The translations under genes were made by a program, and so were the position numbers. From Chloroflexota bacterium (GTDB lineage Bacteria; Chloroflexota; Anaerolineae; UBA4142), in assembly GCA_037440625.1 (NCBI GenBank), contig JBBITT010000005.1, positions 41,492 to 105,491 on the forward strand: DNA of 64,000 bases, in the 5' to 3' direction. Positions 10,746 through 46,852 of this stretch are shown here, one piece after another (within the stretch, counting starts at the first letter, position 1; every line of letters begins with the position of its first letter). The notes below the pieces were generated by a model. That model was not told the DNA's origin and did not search any database. It was given only the letters and a program-made list of their open reading frames with translations.

Positions 10746-11509
10746 TGATTTATCCCAACTTTTCCCTCACGCACTCCAAGCACATAGAACAACAGTGCTA
10801 CCAGGGCAAGGAGCGCGTCTATCCATTGATCAAGGCGTAATCCGTCCACCCACACTGCCTCGTCGCCGCGTTGAAAGCCAAGCAGAAAGTTTGCCAGCGA
10901 TGATACGAACAAGTAGACAATCGCGAGCCAGCCAGCACGCGGATTGCGTAACGCAAATATCCACAATCCAATAAACAAACCGGCGAACAAAAGAATTTCG
11001 AAATGTTGGAGAGGAAAACGCAAAGCGTACAATCCGTAAAGGTCCGGCAAATCTAGCGCCAGCGGGCTATCACTTGCAACACCATAGTTTGCACCATGCG
11101 CCAGCGCGCCTACCCAACCTATGGCTTGACCCAGACACATACCGATTGCCCCAGCATCGGCAAGACGAGCCAAGCGCAAATCGCGCACACGCGCATACAC
11201 TGCCAACGCGATCCCGCCGGTCAAAAGCGCACCGCGCATTGCCAAGCCGCCTAACCCCAATTGCACGATTTCCTCGGGACGGATCGAATAATACTCCCAA
11301 TGCGTCGCCACGTGATAGCCACGCGCCCCCAGCCATGCCGCCATGAACACCACCAGCACGCCATCGAAGAACAGAGTAACCGTGGTAGCACGGCGATAAC
11401 GCATGCGCAGGTACAGATAGGTGGCGAACAACCCACCCGTGATTCCCAGCATCACGAGCACGGTATACACCGGTAGTTCGATCAGAAACAAATCAAAAGT
11501 TGGTGGCAT
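10742..11509 (-). CDS. lgt: Prolipoprotein diacylglyceryl transferase-like membrane protein
   Basis: Polytopic membrane protein with an Lgt-like pattern (PVYTVLVMLGITGG..., GARGYH..., GALAHGANYG). No SD is visible before the ATG. Confidence 0.6.
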   Translation of the reverse strand: MPPTFDLFLIELPVYTVLVMLGITGGLFATYLYLRMRYRRATTVTLFFDGVLVVFMAAWLGARGYHVATHWEYYSIRPEEIVQLGLGGLAMRGALLTGGIALAVYARVRDLRLARLADAGAIGMCLGQAIGWVGALAHGANYGVASDSPLALDLPDLYGLYALRFPLQHFEILLFAGLFIGLWIFALRNPRAGWLAIVYLFVSSLANFLLGFQRGDEAVWVDGLRLDQWIDALLALVALLFYVLGVREGKVGINQ

Positions 11510-34616: not shown

Positions 34617-35219
34617 TTATTCGACCGTGATCAAATCTTTGATTTGCGCAAACAGCGCATCGCCGATGCCGCGCACCTTTTTGAGATCGTCAATTTTTTG
34701 GAAATTCCCGTTCTGGGTACGATAATCAATGATGCGTTGGCCAATGGACGCGCCGATGCCGGGGAGCGCGTCAAGTTCGGCGAGCGTTGCCGTATTGATG
34801 TTGATTTTGCCAGCAGGCACGGCTGGAGTGGGAGTACGTGATGTGGCACTGCGGCTGGAGGCGGGCGGGACCGGCGTTGCTTCACCTTGCGCGGGAACGT
34901 AAATTTGTTCGCCATCGTTGAGTTTGCGCGCCAAGTTGAGCGTACGCGTATCGGCATTGGCCAACACATCGCCCGCCAGCGCAAGGGCGTCTTGCACGCG
35001 ACTCCCCGCCGGGAGCGTATAAACACCGGGATTACTCACTGCACCTCGGACATCCACAACGAGCGTTGCCATCGTTGGGGTGGGCTTGGGCGTAGGCGTG
35101 GTGATGACCATCGCCGAAGGTTCAGGTCGGCGCAGCAAATAAATCGTCCCGGCAAGGACAATAACAAAGAGGAACAGCATCAAGAGGTAAGGGCGATAGC
35201 GCACGAGCCAATTCGTCAT
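34617..35219 (-). CDS. comEA: ComEA-family DNA-binding protein (TM + SLBB + tandem HhH)
   Basis: C-terminus KININTATLAELDALPGIGASIGQRIIDYR...FQKIDDLKKVRGIGDALFAQI. Confidence 0.85.
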   Translation of the reverse strand: MTNWLVRYRPYLLMLFLFVIVLAGTIYLLRRPEPSAMVITTPTPKPTPTMATLVVDVRGAVSNPGVYTLPAGSRVQDALALAGDVLANADTRTLNLARKLNDGEQIYVPAQGEATPVPPASSRSATSRTPTPAVPAGKININTATLAELDALPGIGASIGQRIIDYRTQNGNFQKIDDLKKVRGIGDALFAQIKDLITVE

Positions 35220-35274
35220 TCGACATCTCCAGAGATGAAGAATGTTGGTGCGCTAGAATTATACCACAGAAATC

Positions 35275-35378
35275 GTAACTACTCACCGCAGAGGCACAGA
35301 GAACGCCGAGTTTCATTTTGTTTTTTTCTCCGCGCCCTCGGCGTCTCTGCGGTAATTTGAGAAGGGCTGAGCAGTTAC
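35275..35378. mobile_element. 104-bp MITE-like element, copy A
   Basis: Terminal inverted repeats GTAACTACTCACC... and ...GCTGAGCAGTTAC. Internal palindrome CCGCAGAG..ACGCCGAG / CTCGGCGTCTCTGCGG. Perfect 8-bp direct repeat CAGAAATC at 35267-35274 and 35379-35386. Matches the reverse complement of copy B at 103/104 positions. Confidence 0.85.
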
Positions 35379-35444
35379 CAGAAATCAGTGAAACAATGAG
35401 CTCATCAACCCGGTACGCTCGCACCCGGTTTGCTCATTCTCCGT

Positions 35445-36203
35445 TTATCTTGCCGCTTGAAACAGCAAGATTGTTGCCGCCATCGCCGCATTCAACGATT
35501 CAACGCCACCATGCATCGGGATGCATACGCGCGCGGTGGCGATTTTTTGTGCCGCGTCGCTCGCGCCGGTGGCTTCGCCGCCAACGATGAGCGCGACCGG
35601 GCGCGACCAATCGGCTTGCGTGTAAACGAGGTCGCCGCGCGCGTCTGCAAGGTACACCCGCGCGATGTGAGGAATCGCATCGGCAATCATCTGCCACGAG
35701 GCAACCCGTAGCGGCACGTAAAAATGTGCGCCCATCGCCGCGCGGACAACTTTATCGTTGTACGGATCGGCAGTACTCGCCGCGAAGAAAATGGCATCCA
35801 CGCCAGCGGCGCGCGCGGAACGCAAAATCGTACCCACATTTCCCGGGTCGCGCACCGAATCGAGAATCAAAACGAATTGAGGTTGCGCCGGCATTGGCAA
35901 TTCGACAAACGGCACGACAGTGAGGATGCCTTGGGGCGTTTCGGTGTTCGATATTTCTTTCATCACCGCTTCGCTCACGGCGTACACCTCGCTCGTCATC
36001 GTACGTAATCGTTCGAGCAACGTGCGCGCATCCTCCTCGACTTGCGACGTGTGCAAAACCAACATCGGCGTGATATTGGCGTTCACCGCCTCTTCGATCA
36101 GCCGCACGCCTTCGAGGATGAATTGGCGCGTGGCATAGCGTTCACGCCGGCGCGCCAGCGCGCGGACGTGTTTGATTTTGGGGTTGGCGTGACTGGTAAT
36201 CAT
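35445..36203 (-). CDS. TrmH-family RNA 2'-O-methyltransferase (RlmB-like)
   Basis: SpoU/TrmH motifs LDSVRDPGNVGTILRSA, LIVGGEATG and IPMHGGVESLNAAMA. I preferred the ATG at 36203 because the track start at 36236 lies inside a 16-bp hairpin. Confidence 0.8.
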   Translation of the reverse strand: MITSHANPKIKHVRALARRRERYATRQFILEGVRLIEEAVNANITPMLVLHTSQVEEDARTLLERLRTMTSEVYAVSEAVMKEISNTETPQGILTVVPFVELPMPAQPQFVLILDSVRDPGNVGTILRSARAAGVDAIFFAASTADPYNDKVVRAAMGAHFYVPLRVASWQMIADAIPHIARVYLADARGDLVYTQADWSRPVALIVGGEATGASDAAQKIATARVCIPMHGGVESLNAAMAATILLFQAAR

Positions 36204-36216
36204 TGGGGGCAGTGAA

Positions 36217-36258
36217 TCAATGAGCCAATGTACCAAATTTGATACATTGGCTCATTGA
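36217..36258. other. Perfect 16-bp inverted repeat with a 10-nt spacer
   Basis: TCAATGAGCCAATGTA (36217-36232) pairs with TACATTGGCTCATTGA (36243-36258), between the rplT stop and the TrmH start. There is no clear U-tract. Confidence 0.8.
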
Positions 36259-37811: not shown

Positions 37812-38450
37812 ATGAGTGATTTACTTCAAGCCCTGATTGCCTTCTTCACCGCACTTTCCGTCGCGCTAGGCCAACCCCAGCCCGCCCTTCCTAATCCGGG
37901 GGCACAACCCACCGCTGTATCGTCTTCGTCAGCGACCACAACCTCGTCCGCGCCTGCCTCATCATCGTCGTCCGTGAGTTCTGCTACCTCATCGTCTTCG
38001 ACTACCTCGAGTTCATCGTCGTCCAAATCAACCGAATCCAAGTCAGAATTTCAAGTCCAAGGCCAAGTTCAAAGCGTCAATGGCAACACCATCATAATTG
38101 ATGGCAAGACCTATGTTCTGGGTCAGAATGTTGAAATCAAAGGAACACTGCAAGTTGGCGCCACGGTCAAACTAGAAGGTTCAATCGTGAATGGTCAGTT
38201 TGTTGTCCGCGAAATTCAAGTGACAAGCGCCAAAAGTTCTAGCGCGTCCAGTGGCACTAGTTCGAGCAAGAGCAGTGATGACGATCACAAGAGTAGCAGT
38301 AGCGCCTCCAGCGGATCGAGTTCCAAGAGCGAAGACGATCACAAGGATGATGACGAGCACAAGAGCGAAGACGATCACAAGGATGATGACGAGCACAAGA
38401 GTAGCAGTGAGCGTAGCAAGAGCAGTTCAAGTGGTTCGAGTAAAAAATAA
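37812..38450 (+). CDS. Secreted Ser-rich low-complexity protein with a central beta-domain (DUF5666-like) and an acidic/His-rich repeat tail
   Basis: Signal-like N-terminus, poly-Ser/Thr tracts, core QVQGQVQSVNGNTIIIDGKTYVLGQNVEIKG...GQFVVREIQV, and a tail of (S)EDDHKDDDEHK x2. AAGGAG lies upstream of the ATG. Confidence 0.6.
   Translation: MSDLLQALIAFFTALSVALGQPQPALPNPGAQPTAVSSSSATTTSSAPASSSSSVSSATSSSSTTSSSSSSKSTESKSEFQVQGQVQSVNGNTIIIDGKTYVLGQNVEIKGTLQVGATVKLEGSIVNGQFVVREIQVTSAKSSSASSGTSSSKSSDDDHKSSSSASSGSSSKSEDDHKDDDEHKSEDDHKDDDEHKSSSERSKSSSSGSSKK
38328..38399 (+). repeat. Perfect 36-bp tandem duplication inside the CDS
   Basis: AGCGAAGACGATCACAAGGATGATGACGAGCACAAG occurs twice (38328-38363 and 38364-38399), encoding SEDDHKDDDEHK twice. 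Confidence 0.95.
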
Positions 38451-44862: not shown

Positions 44863-45115
44863 ATCTAGTAGTCACCGTAGGACTTGTGGAAATGTGCAGA
44901 GTGTGAACAACTGTACCAAAGTACACGATTTGTTGGATTGGGACTTGGGATTACATCTAGATATAGGTATTTGATGATCAAGGTAATGTGAGCGACTTGT
45001 GTGGGTTTTAAAGTGACAAAATAGCTGTCAACTAAATTCGTTCAGCCCAACGACTAGTGGACACAAGCACTTCAAGCCACTATTTGTAGCACAAACCTTA
45101 AGCACAAATGTCAAG

Positions 45116-45194
45116 TTATCCCCATAATGACTAGGTTATCCCCAATTTAACCCTACTTATCCACACATCCACCAAGTTTTCCACCTGTGGATAA
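45116..45194. other. DnaA-box cluster downstream of dnaA (putative oriC part 1)
   Basis: TTATCCCCA (45116-45124), TTATCCCCA (45136-45144), perfect TTATCCACA (45157-45165), TTTTCCACC (45177-45185), and perfect TGTGGATAA (45186-45194). Weaker TGTGGAAA-like sites start from about 44884. Confidence 0.7.
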
Positions 45195-45210
45195 CTGATT
45201 GTGAGTAAAC

Positions 45211-45314
45211 GTAACTGCTCAGCCCTTCTCAAATTACCGCAGAGACGCCGAGGGCGCGGAGAAAAAAACAAAATGAAACTCGGCGTTCTCTGCGCCTCTG
45301 CGGTGAGTAGTTAC
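45211..45314. mobile_element. 104-bp MITE-like element, copy B (inverted relative to copy A)
   Basis: Perfect 8-bp direct repeat GAGTAAAC at 45203-45210 and 45315-45322. One mismatch to the reverse complement of copy A. The track ORF 45234..45425 is an artefact of this element. Confidence 0.85.
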
Positions 45315-45442
45315 GAGTAAACATAAAAAGAGAGACGATTTACGCCTCTCTTCGAAACTCGCACAAATTTCATAAAGAACGTCCGCAATTCCTCGATTGT
45401 TTTCATCTGACCGCTGGCGTGCCAACGGAGAATGGACGATCC

Positions 45443-46852
45443 CTATCCTTTGACCTCATAGAGCCGTTCTTTGATGGCGAGAACCTCGCGTCGCCGGTTA
45501 TCATCCATCTCGATTTGCTCAGCGATTTTATCATGGGCGTACATCACGGTGGTATGATCGCGCCCACCGAGTATCTCGCCAATCTGCGGGAGCGAGGCAT
45601 CGGTCTCTTCGCGCAACAAGTACATAGCTACTTGGCGTGGCAAAACCACCTCTTTGTTGCGACTGCGTCCTGCTAGATCGTTAACATCCACGTTGTAAAA
45701 ATCGGCGACCGCTTGCAAAACCTGATCCACGGTTACCGGCTTGTGGCGCAAAATATCTTGCAACACCGTATTTGCCAATTCGACACTCATTGTGGCTTTC
45801 ATCAATTGGGCATATCCCAGCACGCGGGTTAACGCCCCTTCTAGTTCACGGATGTTGCTTTGGACTTTATGGGCAATCAAGTCAATGACCTCGGTGGGGA
45901 CCGGGGCGCCGAGCGCATCGGCTTTGGTACGTAAAATGGCGATCCGCATTTCCAGATCAGGCGGCTGAATATCGGTGATCATACCGCCTTCAAAGCGTGA
46001 GCGTACGCGTTCTTCAAGTGTCGGGATGGCGCGCGGATGGCGATCGCTGGAAATAACGATTTGTTTATTGGCGGCATAGAGATGATTGAACGTATGGAAA
46101 AATTCTTCCTGGGTTGCTTCCTTGCCAGCGATGAACTGAATATCGTCAATCAGCAGCACATCAATCTCGCGATAGATGCGACGAAATTCGTTGGTGGTTT
46201 GATTGCGAATTGCGTTGATGAGATCGTTGGTAAAAGTTTCGGAGGAGACGTAAAGCACACGTCTGCTTCGCACGACCGGGTGTTGACCCAGGGCGTGAAG
46301 CAAATGAGTCTTGCCCAACCCGGTCCCCCCATAGATGAACAAGGGATTGTACGATTCGCCGGGATGTTCGGCAACCGCCAATGCCGCCGCATGCGCCAAC
46401 CGATTTGAATTGCCAACGATAAACGTGGCGAACGTGTACTTGGAATTCAGCGGACGTGCACGTCCCATCAAATCATTGGCGGGTAGTTGAGCAGTGGATT
46501 GTTCGTCCATTCTTGATTCGTCCGGCGGACTGTTCAACGCACGGTGTAACGGTTCCGAGTTCCCAGCGTCGTCTGCCGATCCATGACGGGGAATGTTCTT
46601 GTCTTTAACGACGTACTGAATAGTTACTGGCTCGCCCACAATACCGGTGATGGTGCGATGAATGGTTGCTTGCAAACGGTTCTCTAACCATTCTTTGGCG
46701 TACGCGCTGTGGACGCCAACAATCAACGCACCATTATTATACTCAATTGCGTGTGTAGGTCTAACCCACGTATCAAACGTGGCTTTGGTCATTTGCAGTT
46801 GTAATTCGCCAAGGGTGGCGTGCCAAATGTCCTGTGCATTCATAGATGGCAA
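45443..46852 (-). CDS. dnaA: Chromosomal replication initiator protein DnaA
   Basis: Walker A GGTGLGKTHL, box VII, and the C-terminal DNA-binding helix LPQIGEILGGRDHTTVMYAHDKI. The start is either TTG at 46852 or ATG at 46843. Confidence 0.93.
   Translation of the reverse strand: MPSMNAQDIWHATLGELQLQMTKATFDTWVRPTHAIEYNNGALIVGVHSAYAKEWLENRLQATIHRTITGIVGEPVTIQYVVKDKNIPRHGSADDAGNSEPLHRALNSPPDESRMDEQSTAQLPANDLMGRARPLNSKYTFATFIVGNSNRLAHAAALAVAEHPGESYNPLFIYGGTGLGKTHLLHALGQHPVVRSRRVLYVSSETFTNDLINAIRNQTTNEFRRIYREIDVLLIDDIQFIAGKEATQEEFFHTFNHLYAANKQIVISSDRHPRAIPTLEERVRSRFEGGMITDIQPPDLEMRIAILRTKADALGAPVPTEVIDLIAHKVQSNIRELEGALTRVLGYAQLMKATMSVELANTVLQDILRHKPVTVDQVLQAVADFYNVDVNDLAGRSRNKEVVLPRQVAMYLLREETDASLPQIGEILGGRDHTTVMYAHDKIAEQIEMDDNRRREVLAIKERLYEVKG

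What the first reader, a model, noticed from the sequence alone, without database searches (positions are those of the whole stretch)
35267..35386. 104-bp MITE-like element (copy A) with an 8-bp target-site duplication inserted at the comEA promoter
**Seen**
- The element 35275-35378 has terminal inverted repeats (GTAACTACTCA... and ...TGAGCAGTTAC).
- It has a long internal palindrome (CCGCAGAG/ACGCCGAG paired with CTCGGCGTCTCTGCGG).
- It is flanked by a perfect direct repeat CAGAAATC (35267-35274 and 35379-35386).
- A second copy at 45211-45314 matches at 103/104 positions in the opposite orientation and has a different 8-bp duplication.

**Inference**
- This is a non-autonomous transposable element that moved recently.
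- The comEA extended -10 (TGGTATAAT on the minus strand, about 35260-35268) lies immediately next to the insertion, so the -35 region of comEA is now supplied by the element end.
- The insertion may therefore alter competence-gene expression.
- No transposase is present in the window.
Basis: partly seen in the sequence, partly recalled or inferred. Interest (0 to 1): 0.6.

Follow-up and report, generated by a model that had tools for sequence, protein, structure and literature searches.

The report
IS66-type MITE at comEA promoter
The 104-bp sequence is a genuine miniature, transposase-less jumping element that landed recently just upstream of a DNA-uptake gene and beside the replication origin; its ends match single-gene IS66-family insertion sequences, so it is a well-documented but fairly ordinary kind of mobile DNA.

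Summary
There are two 104-bp copies (35275-35378 and 45211-45314), 103/104 identical and in opposite orientation. Each has 11-bp terminal inverted repeats (GTAACTRCTCA) and its own perfect 8-bp target duplication. Related Anaerolineae genomes carry precise empty sites for both insertions, each with a single copy of the 8-mer. The sister genome holds at least five copies that are 99-100% identical at other loci, although the genomic background is only about 90% identical. The termini and the 8-bp duplication match single-ORF IS66-family (ISBst12-group) insertion sequences: 1.47-kb elements found here with GTAACTAC(A/T)CAGG ends and perfect 8-bp duplications, a Chloroflexota IS whose end is GTAACTACTCAGG, and the experimentally active ISDge4 (GTAACTGCTCAGCA, 8-bp repeat). 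The element belongs to a MITE family found across several phyla: 23 non-redundant members have perfect 8-bp, AT-rich duplications. The window holds no transposase. Copy A begins at about -24 of a conserved extended -10 promoter (TGTGnTATAAT) of comEA. The duplication preserves the conserved core, and no orthologue has a recognisable -35, so an effect on expression is possible but unproven. Copy B lies 8 bp from the DnaA-box cluster of the putative origin. Verdict: new member of a known kind.

The parts
35275..35378 (-). MITE copy A, 104 bp. Read on the minus strand it starts GTAACTGCTCAGCC, the same orientation as copy B on the plus strand.
   Evidence: identical to the L022 copy in the sister genome
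35267..35274 (.). Target-site duplication of copy A, comEA-proximal copy (CAGAAATC; GATTTCTG on the minus strand)
   Evidence: a single copy is present in the empty sites L003/L004
35379..35386 (.). Target-site duplication of copy A, distal copy (CAGAAATC)
35275..35285 (+). Terminal inverted repeat GTAACTACTCA, abutted directly by the CCGCAGAG-repeat arm
   Evidence: positions 1-11 nearly invariant in 46 ends
35368..35378 (-). Terminal inverted repeat GTAACTGCTCA (read on the minus strand), followed inward by a 15-nt spacer
   Evidence: 13/14 identical to the ISDge4 TIR GTAACTGCTCAGCA
35286..35352 (.). Internal imperfect palindrome made of GCAGAG / CTCTGC repeats around a T-rich centre
   Evidence: RNA fold -48.4 kcal/mol, z = -7.4 on the minus strand; no covariation
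35258..35266 (-). Extended -10 element TGGTATAAT of the inferred comEA promoter
   Evidence: TGTGnTATAAT is conserved in all orthologous spacers. Promoter function is inferred, not shown.
34617..35219 (-). comEA-like gene (SLBB + HHH_3 domains)
   Evidence: TIGR00426 at 70 bits, cutoff 53; TIGR01259 below its cutoff
35445..36236 (-). SpoU/TrmH-family RNA methyltransferase gene upstream of copy A
45211..45314 (+). MITE copy B, 104 bp
   Evidence: identical to the L036 and L047 copies
45203..45210 (.). Target-site duplication of copy B (GAGTAAAC)
   Evidence: single GTTTATTC on the aligned strand (the reverse complement of the window + strand) in the empty site L001
45315..45322 (.). Target-site duplication of copy B (GAGTAAAC)
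45116..45194 (.). Cluster of four DnaA boxes (two perfect TTATCCACA, two with one mismatch), the putative oriC, 8 bp from copy B's duplication
   Evidence: conserved in L001; cumulative GC-skew minimum near 40-44 kb
45327..45353 (-). Terminator-like hairpin plus T-run downstream of dnaA, immediately next to copy B
   Evidence: conserved in L001
45443..46852 (-). dnaA gene

Best explanation
The 104-bp sequence is a miniature inverted-repeat transposable element (MITE). It has no coding capacity and is moved in trans by a DDE transposase of the single-ORF (ISBst12-type) branch of the IS66 family, encoded by a full-length IS elsewhere in the genome or community. The transposase recognises the 11-12-bp termini GTAACTRCTCA(G) and joins the ends to staggered nicks 8 bp apart in AT-rich DNA. 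Gap repair then produces the 8-bp direct repeat. Both window copies are recent, lineage-specific insertions. Copy A lies between the SpoU/TrmH methyltransferase gene and comEA and displaces everything upstream of about -24 of the comEA extended -10 promoter. Copy B lies between the dnaA terminator and the DnaA-box cluster of the putative origin. Shown here: the termini, the duplications, the empty sites, family members in many genomes, and full-length IS elements with the same termini and duplication length. Taken from the literature: an IS with these termini actually transposes. Inferred: trans-mobilisation, a cognate transposase in the source genome, and any effect on comEA or on replication initiation. 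I judge that effect probably small, because the conserved promoter core is kept intact.
For: (1) Anatomy: 104 bp, 11-bp TIRs, and perfect but different 8-bp duplications at both copies. (2) Empty sites: L003/L004 have a single GATTTCTG and no element. L001 has a single GTTTATTC at the dnaA/oriC site. (3) Mobility and recency: the sister MAG DAOUAL01 has at least 5 copies at non-orthologous sites, each with its own duplication (four perfect, one 7/8). Three are 104/104 identical to window copies and two are 99%, while the background DNA identity is about 90%. (4) Family statistics: 23 non-redundant elements of 94-341 bp have 8/8 duplications and 9 have 7/8, against none at 6/8 or better in the shifted control. 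The duplications are 72% A+T against 46% in the host loci. (5) Parent type: the L020 ORF ending 4 bp from a GTAGTTAC end matches PF03050 DDE_Tnp_IS66 at E = 3.4e-35. Complete 1,473-bp IS elements L053 and L059 have one 475-aa transposase (NF033517 IS66 equivalog, 310 bits against a cutoff of 180), ends GTAACTACACAGG, and perfect 8-bp duplications ATTTTTTT and TTTTTAAG. The L052 right end and the L093 (Chloroflexota) left end are GTAACTACTCAGG, 11/11 with the MITE TIR. Chlorohelix plasmid IS66 elements have GTAACAAATCAGCC ends and perfect 8-bp duplications. (6) Literature: ISDge4 (ISBst12 group) has TIRs GTGACTACTCAGCA / GTAACTGCTCAGCA and an 8-bp direct repeat, and was observed to transpose (PMC12898284). 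IS66 inverted repeats start with GTAA and give 8-bp direct repeats (PMC11946415).
Against: No transposase lies in the 64-kb window, and the rest of the source genome could not be searched, so a cognate enzyme in the same cell is unproven. Similarity between the MITE and the full-length IS elements stops at the 11-12-bp termini (z < 1.3 beyond them). The conserved CCGCAGAG-repeat arm was never found next to a transposase gene in 67 loci, so the element is not a simple internal-deletion derivative of any IS seen here. Trans-mobilisation of a MITE by an IS66-family enzyme has not, to my knowledge, been demonstrated experimentally.
Confidence: 0.87

Rival explanations
1. It is a MITE, but it is mobilised by a transposase of another family that also makes 8-bp duplications (for example ISL3, IS256, IS6 or IS1). 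On this reading the resemblance to IS66-type ends is coincidental.
For: Only 11-12 terminal bases are shared with the IS66-type elements. No cognate transposase is seen in the window.
Against: The 11 terminal bases are nearly invariant in 46 MITE ends. They are identical to the ends of two independent IS66-family elements and 13/14 identical to ISDge4. Every full-length element found with such ends encodes an IS66-family transposase and makes 8-bp AT-rich duplications. From my own knowledge of ISfinder family descriptions, the other 8-bp families start with different terminal motifs.
Confidence: 0.06
2. It is a selected regulatory or structural repeat, such as a REP-like palindrome, a transcription terminator or insulator, or a small structured RNA, that has been duplicated. 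It is not a transposon.
For: It forms a very stable hairpin (-48.4 kcal/mol, z = -7.4). All 11 copies of the subfamily are intergenic. Both window copies sit next to regulatory DNA.
Against: Each copy has its own 8-bp duplication, and relatives have precise empty sites. No Rfam family matches. No U-tract terminator lies within the element. None of the 27 helix pairs shows a compensatory change, and substitutions simply break pairs. An intergenic location is expected from the AT-rich target preference.
Confidence: 0.03
3. It is a MITE, and copy A has in addition materially rewired comEA expression. It could do so by supplying a new -35 or upstream element, by removing an upstream regulator site, or by blocking read-through from the methyltransferase gene with its hairpin.
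For: The element begins at about -24 of the inferred promoter, and the -35 position now falls in the element end (GTGAGT, 3/6 to TTGACA at 17-bp spacing; direct reading). Sequence upstream is displaced by 112 bp. The transcript strand folds into a -48 kcal/mol hairpin.
Against: The conserved block GATTTCTG-TGG-TATAAT is retained intact because of the duplication. No orthologous spacer has a conserved or consensus -35. From established knowledge, extended -10 promoters can work without a -35. The sister genome L001 tolerates a different insert of about 100 bp at the same place. There are no expression data.
Confidence: 0.2

Closest known systems
ISBst12 group of the IS66 family (for example ISDge4 of Deinococcus geothermalis; ISBst12 of Geobacillus stearothermophilus)
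   Same: The terminal sequence matches: ISDge4 has GTAACTGCTCAGCA / GTGACTACTCAGCA and this element has GTAACTGCTCAGCC / GTAACTACTCA. Both make an 8-bp direct repeat. The GTAA start is typical of IS66. Full-length relatives found here have a single roughly 475-aa IS66 transposase, ends GTAACTAC(A/T)CAGG and 8-bp AT-rich duplications.
   Different: The element is 104 bp with no ORF. Apart from the 11-12 terminal bases its sequence is unrelated to the IS elements. It carries a GCAGAG-repeat palindrome that was not seen in any autonomous element.
Bacterial MITEs in general, for example MITEPsy1 of Pseudomonas syringae (100 nt, shown to transpose; PMC3189936), and Correia/NEMIS elements of Neisseria (own knowledge)
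   Same: About 100 bp, terminal inverted repeats, a target duplication, multiple near-identical copies, intergenic or promoter-proximal insertions, a hairpin-forming transcript, and dependence on a transposase in trans.
   Different: MITEPsy1 is linked to an IS5-family element and makes 4-bp duplications. Correia elements duplicate TA (own knowledge). The present family is linked to IS66/ISBst12 and makes 8-bp duplications. No IS66-linked MITE turned up in the literature searches.
REP/BIME-type extragenic palindromes (PMC3733652)
   Same: Short intergenic palindromic repeats in many copies.
   Different: REPs are 20-40 bp, carry GTAG or CGTC tags, and are not flanked by target duplications. 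This element has TIRs, 8-bp duplications and empty sites.

Membership tests
MITE (non-autonomous DDE-transposon derivative) | Small size with no coding capacity | tested here: met
   104 bp. Only spurious ORFs cross it.
MITE (non-autonomous DDE-transposon derivative) | Terminal inverted repeats | tested here: met
   11 bp, 10/11 complementary. Positions 1-11 are nearly invariant in 46 ends.
MITE (non-autonomous DDE-transposon derivative) | Target-site duplication of fixed length that differs between copies | tested here: met
   Perfect 8-bp duplications at both window copies. 23 distinct perfect duplications family-wide, against none at 6/8 or better in the control.
MITE (non-autonomous DDE-transposon derivative) | Empty sites in related genomes with one copy of the target | tested here: met
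   L003/L004 for copy A; L001 for copy B.
MITE (non-autonomous DDE-transposon derivative) | Multiple dispersed copies | tested here: met
   2 in the window; at least 5 nearly identical plus 4 variant copies in the sister MAG. The copy number in the source genome itself is unknown.
IS66 family, ISBst12 group (as the mobilising IS type) | Inverted repeats starting with GTAA | tested here: met
   Both ends start GTAAC. Hallmark cited from PMC11946415.
IS66 family, ISBst12 group (as the mobilising IS type) | 8-bp direct repeats | tested here: met
   hallmark
IS66 family, ISBst12 group (as the mobilising IS type) | Termini matching those of bona fide members that encode an IS66 transposase as a single ORF | tested here: met
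   L052 and L093 ends are GTAACTACTCAGG (11/11). L053/L059 ends are GTAACTACACAGG (10/11). ISDge4 is 13/14. The transposases match PF03050 and NF033517.
IS66 family, ISBst12 group (as the mobilising IS type) | Cognate transposase present in the same genome | not testable with these tools
   None in the 64-kb window. The source genome is not retrievable. In the Chloroflexia MAG JBBQWM01, MITEs and a truncated IS66 transposase with a matching end co-occur.
IS66 family, ISBst12 group (as the mobilising IS type) | Sequence homology to the parent IS beyond the TIR (deletion-derivative origin) | tested here: not met
   No significant similarity beyond 11-12 nt (z < 1.3). This bears on origin, not on mobilisation.
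Rfam structured RNA / intrinsic terminator | Match to a curated covariance model, or a hairpin followed by a U-tract, or covariation supporting the helix | tested here: not met
   only noise, 19 bits against a gathering score of 99; no terminator in the element; 0 of 27 covarying pairs
REP/RAYT repeats | 20-40-bp palindrome without target duplication | tested here: not met
   104 bp with TIRs and 8-bp duplications.

The most novel reading that the evidence does not exclude
The element is one member of a previously undescribed MITE superfamily found across phyla (Chloroflexota, Desantisbacteria, Nitrospirota, a Pseudomonadota MAG and others). Its conserved asymmetric layout runs TIR, GCAGAG-repeat arm, variable centre, CTCTGC arm, a spacer of about 15 nt, TIR. 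That layout is absent from every autonomous IS66-type element seen. The element is kept 100% identical between genomes that are 10% diverged. This would imply either frequent inter-species transfer or a selected role for the GCAGAG arm: a dedicated binding platform for the transposase's N-terminal domain or a host factor, or a portable regulatory or insulating module preferentially delivered to AT-rich promoters and origins.
Probability: 0.12. Interest if true: 0.6.

Novelty: new member of a known kind. Interest (0 to 1): 0.4.

Why it matters
This is a clean, fully documented case of recent MITE activity in uncultured Anaerolineae: termini, duplications, empty sites and a candidate transposase family. 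It also appears to be the first link between a MITE family and the single-ORF (ISBst12) branch of IS66, whose transposition mechanism is poorly understood. The shared 11-bp end defines the minimal sequence likely to be recognised by these transposases. The AT-rich 8-bp target preference explains why copies land in promoters, next to terminators and at the origin. For genome annotation of Chloroflexota MAGs, the family is a recognisable cause of contig breaks and of variable intergenic regions. The specific insertions could be natural experiments in promoter and origin tolerance, one at -24 of comEA and one 8 bp from the DnaA-box cluster. No functional consequence has been shown.

Tried and rejected
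Genome-wide copy number and transposase content of the source genome therefore remain unknown.

(2) I tested whether the MITE ends are homologous to IS ends beyond the TIR. An apparent 18/24 match by eye was not better than shuffles (z < 1.3), so I rejected it.

(3) The 3,050-bp TIR pair with 'TSD' TTACGATT in L020 is not an intact IS. The left end belongs to a 142-bp MITE, the interior holds an unrelated gene, and the IS66 ORF is 5'-truncated. It was used only as the lead to the transposase family.

(4) The viral-contig scan gave five hits that are one identical phage sequence with no partner end, a chance match.

(5) The metagenome scan for the GTAACTGCTCAGCCNTTCTCAAATTACC end gave 0 hits. 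This subfamily is confined, so far, to the window genome and its sister MAG.

(6) The plasmid and phage collections contain no copy of the element.

(7) Literature searches for IS66-derived MITEs, Chloroflexi MITEs and the terminal sequences returned nothing relevant apart from ISDge4.

(8) The structured-RNA and terminator readings were rejected.

(9) Several metagenome IS contigs (L054-L058) have non-matching flanks. These are probably chimeric assemblies of a multi-copy IS, so only L053 and L059 were used as evidence for duplications.

Full report
OBSERVATION. Reading the window confirms the finding to the base. Copy A occupies 35275-35378 and is flanked by CAGAAATC at 35267-35274 and 35379-35386. 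Copy B occupies 45211-45314 in the opposite orientation and is flanked by GAGTAAAC at 45203-45210 and 45315-45322. The copies differ at one position (35296). The layout on the + strand of copy A is as follows:
- TIR GTAACTACTCA (35275-85)
- CCGCAGAG (35286-93)
- 9-nt bulge GCACAGAGA (35294-35302)
- ACGCCGAG (35303-10)
- T-rich centre (35311-27)
- CTCCGCGCC (35328-36)
- CTCGGCGT-CTCTGCGG (35337-52)
- 15-nt spacer TAATTTGAGAAGGGC (35353-67)
- TIR TGAGCAGTTAC (35368-78)

The repeat finder lists the pair as by far the strongest inverted repeat in the window: 106 nt at 99%, against 39 nt at 77% for the next best. The element folds strongly as a single strand (-48.4 kcal/mol, z = -7.4 on the minus strand of copy A; -37.9 kcal/mol, z = -3.4 on the other strand).

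CONTEXT. Copy A lies between a SpoU/TrmH-family RNA methyltransferase gene (35445-36236, minus) and a ComEA-like gene (34617-35219, minus; SLBB + HHH_3 domains; TIGR00426 above its cutoff). Copy B lies between a DUF2905 gene and the 3' end of dnaA (45443-46852, minus). More exactly, it sits between a terminator-like hairpin downstream of dnaA (45353-45327) and a cluster of four DnaA boxes at 45116-45194. That cluster contains the only two perfect TTATCCACA boxes in the 64 kb. The cumulative GC skew reaches its minimum near 40-44 kb, which is consistent with an origin here. Protein similarity places the window in an uncultured Chloroflexota lineage of class Anaerolineae.

EMPTY SITES. The closest relatives recovered through the methyltransferase gene are syntenic. 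In L003/L004 (protein 87% identical), the SpoU-comEA spacer is about 106 bp between the called genes and reads ...CATTGGCTCATT-GATTTCTG-TGGTATAAT.... The window reads ...GTTTCACT-GATTTCTG-[element]-GATTTCTG-TGGTATAAT.... In L001 (Anaerolineae MAG H63_652, DAOUAL01), the dnaA-oriC junction reads ...CTCTCTTTTTAT-GTTTATTC-ACAATCGGTTATCCACA..., where the window has GTTTACTC-[element]-GTTTACTC. Both insertions therefore have a precise empty site carrying one copy of the 8-mer.

COPIES ELSEWHERE. A scan of one genome per species for the end pattern gave 47 stretches.
- The sister MAG DAOUAL01 carries five full copies (L007, L011, L022, L036, L047), each at a different locus with its own 8-bp duplication (four perfect, L011 7/8).
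- L022 is 104/104 identical to copy A, and L036 and L047 are 104/104 identical to copy B.
- The alignable genomic background between the window and L001 is only about 90% identical.
- A diverged subfamily of about 95 bp is also present in DAOUAL01 (L008, L041, L045, L050).
- All 11 copies are intergenic.

The identity of the copies, far above the background, together with non-shared insertion sites, shows activity after the two lineages split. The source would be a conserved or exchanged master copy.

A WIDER FAMILY. The same termini bound elements of 94-341 bp in other Chloroflexota MAGs and in bins assigned to Desantisbacteria, Nitrospirota and Pseudomonadota, and related ends occur in several other phyla. 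The metagenome scan found 20 further stretches. Binning of short contigs makes the phylum labels less than certain.
- Across all loci there are 23 non-redundant elements with perfect 8/8 duplications and 9 with 7/8. A control comparing the next 8 bases outward never exceeds 5/8.
- The duplications are 72% A+T against 46% for their host loci, so there is an AT-rich target preference.
- Positions 1-11 of the ends are nearly invariant: GTAACT(A/G)CTCA.
- The asymmetric layout recurs in distant members such as L013, L028 and L076. One TIR is abutted by tandem GCAGAG-type repeats, and the other TIR is separated from the complementary arm by a spacer of about 15 nt beginning TAA-TT.

THE TRANSPOSASE FAMILY.
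- In L020 an ORF ending 4 bp from a GTAGTTAC terminus matches Pfam DDE_Tnp_IS66 (E = 3.4e-35). This copy is 5'-truncated.
- Its full-length relatives are single-ORF proteins of about 475-490 aa with DUF6444, zf-IS66 and DDE_Tnp_IS66 domains.
- L053 and L059 are complete 1,473-bp insertion sequences. Their ends are GTAACTACACAGG / CCTGTGTAGTTAC and they have perfect 8-bp duplications (ATTTTTTT and TTTTTAAG).
- In L052 the right end is GTAACTACTCAGG.
- The L053 protein meets NCBI's IS66 equivalog model (310 bits, cutoff 180).
- A Chloroflexota MAG element (L093) has the left end GTAACTACTCAGGTC, identical over the MITE's 11-bp TIR.
- Plasmids of Ca. Chlorohelix allophototropha (complete plasmid records from a single-colony, non-axenic enrichment; Chloroflexota) carry annotated IS66-family elements with ends GTAACAAATCAGCC / GTAACAGTTCAGAC and perfect duplications TAAGATTT and AATTATTT.
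- In the literature, IS66 inverted repeats start with GTAA and give 8-bp direct repeats (PMC11946415).
- ISDge4 of Deinococcus geothermalis is assigned to the single-ORF ISBst12 group. It has TIRs GTGACTACTCAGCA / GTAACTGCTCAGCA and an 8-bp direct repeat, and it was caught transposing (PMC12898284). The window element's end GTAACTGCTCAGCC matches it at 13 of 14 positions.

I therefore assign the element to MITEs mobilised by ISBst12-type IS66 transposases.

LIMITS OF THAT ASSIGNMENT. The window has no IS66 transposase or solo end, and the rest of the source genome could not be retrieved. Beyond the 11-12 terminal bases the MITE is not significantly similar to any IS end. The GCAGAG arm was never found beside a transposase gene in the 67 loci holding it. 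So the element is not a plain internal-deletion derivative of any IS seen. It shares the recognition termini only, as many MITEs do.

RIVAL READINGS. A structured RNA or terminator is not supported. There is no Rfam match at gathering or permissive thresholds. No hairpin-plus-U-tract lies inside the element. An alignment of nine diverged members shows no compensatory change in any of 27 helix pairs, with substitutions that simply break pairs. A REP-like repeat is excluded by the TIRs, the duplications and the empty sites.

THE comEA PROMOTER CLAIM. On the minus strand the sequence is ...GGTGAGTAGTTAC|GATTTCTG|TGGTATAATTCTAGCG.... The motif TGTGnTATAAT is invariant in L001, L003 and L004, and it is also present in more distant orthologues: L085/L087 have TGTGATATAAT and L089/L090 have TGTGGTATAAT (relatives at 73-76% protein identity). 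The rest of the spacer varies freely. That supports, but does not prove, an extended -10 promoter about 39 nt upstream of the ATG. Three points temper the regulatory inference:
- The duplication keeps the conserved block GATTTCTG-TGG-TATAAT intact.
- No orthologue has a recognisable -35, and the consensus scan finds no two-hexamer promoter.
- The sister genome L001 carries an unrelated insert of about 100 bp at the same place.

The site therefore looks permissive, and I put a material expression change at about 0.2. Read-through from the methyltransferase gene would now cross a very stable hairpin. Whether that matters is unknown.

COPY B. The insertion separates the dnaA terminator from the first DnaA box by 112 bp and lies 8 bp from that box. 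This fits the AT-rich target preference. No consequence for initiation can be inferred.

VERDICT. The new information is fourfold: the empty sites, the identification of the mobilising IS type (IS66 family, ISBst12 group), the existence of a wide and apparently undescribed MITE family sharing these ends, and the position of copy B at the putative origin. Conceptually this is a new member of a known kind of element. Interest is moderate (0.4).

Noticed in passing
window 45116-45194 (also 44863-45100): A cluster of four DnaA boxes lies downstream of dnaA: two perfect TTATCCACA (the only perfect ones in the window) and two with one mismatch. It is next to an AT-richer stretch, and the cumulative GC-skew minimum falls near 40-44 kb. 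This is probably the chromosomal origin. The cluster is nearly invariant in L001.
   Followed up: partly
L001 about 10830-10960: The sister genome has a different, unrelated insert of about 100 bp in the SpoU-comEA spacer, just upstream of the conserved extended -10. It contains a perfect palindrome, TGTACAGACGAGTC-GCC-GACTCGTCTGTACA. It could be another mobile or repeated element using the same permissive site.
   Followed up: no
L008 3097-3191 versus L041 2915-3003 and L050 2550-2645: In one copy of the roughly 95-bp variant subfamily the central hairpin segment is inverted, while both outer ends keep their orientation. This is an internal 'flip' of the palindrome.
   Followed up: no
L008, L041, L050 flanks: Three variant copies are embedded in a second, longer repeat (tggcgcgggcgg ... 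GAGGGCAGTTTTTGCCCGCC) and lack clean duplications. This suggests nesting in, or co-amplification with, another repeat family.
   Followed up: no
JBBQWM01 loci, e.g. L016, L031, L032, L040: In a Chloroflexia MAG the elements are composites. A 59-nt GCAGAG module ending in an internal GTAATTAC is joined to a second palindromic repeat (GGGCGACCACATAGGGTCGC...GCGACCCTATGTGGTCGCCC), within outer TIRs and 8-bp duplications.
   Followed up: partly
L020 2101-5235 and L030 3170-3311: The same 142-bp MITE has the flank TTACGATT in two loci. In L020 that 8-mer recurs after a 5'-truncated IS66 remnant 3 kb away, which suggests rearrangement between elements rather than a single 3-kb transposon.
   Followed up: partly
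window 45354-45442: The window has about 90 extra bases between the dnaA stop codon and its terminator hairpin compared with L001.
   Followed up: no
window 38324-38395: A tandem repeat with an 18/36-nt period (CAAGAGCGAAGACGATCACAAGGATGATGACGAGCA). It is likely an acidic, His-rich coding repeat.
   Followed up: no
L093 1739-2885: An IS3-family transposase gene (HTH_Tnp_1, rve) lies immediately next to the Chloroflexota IS66 element. This probably explains why that IS66 copy has no matching duplication.
   Followed up: no
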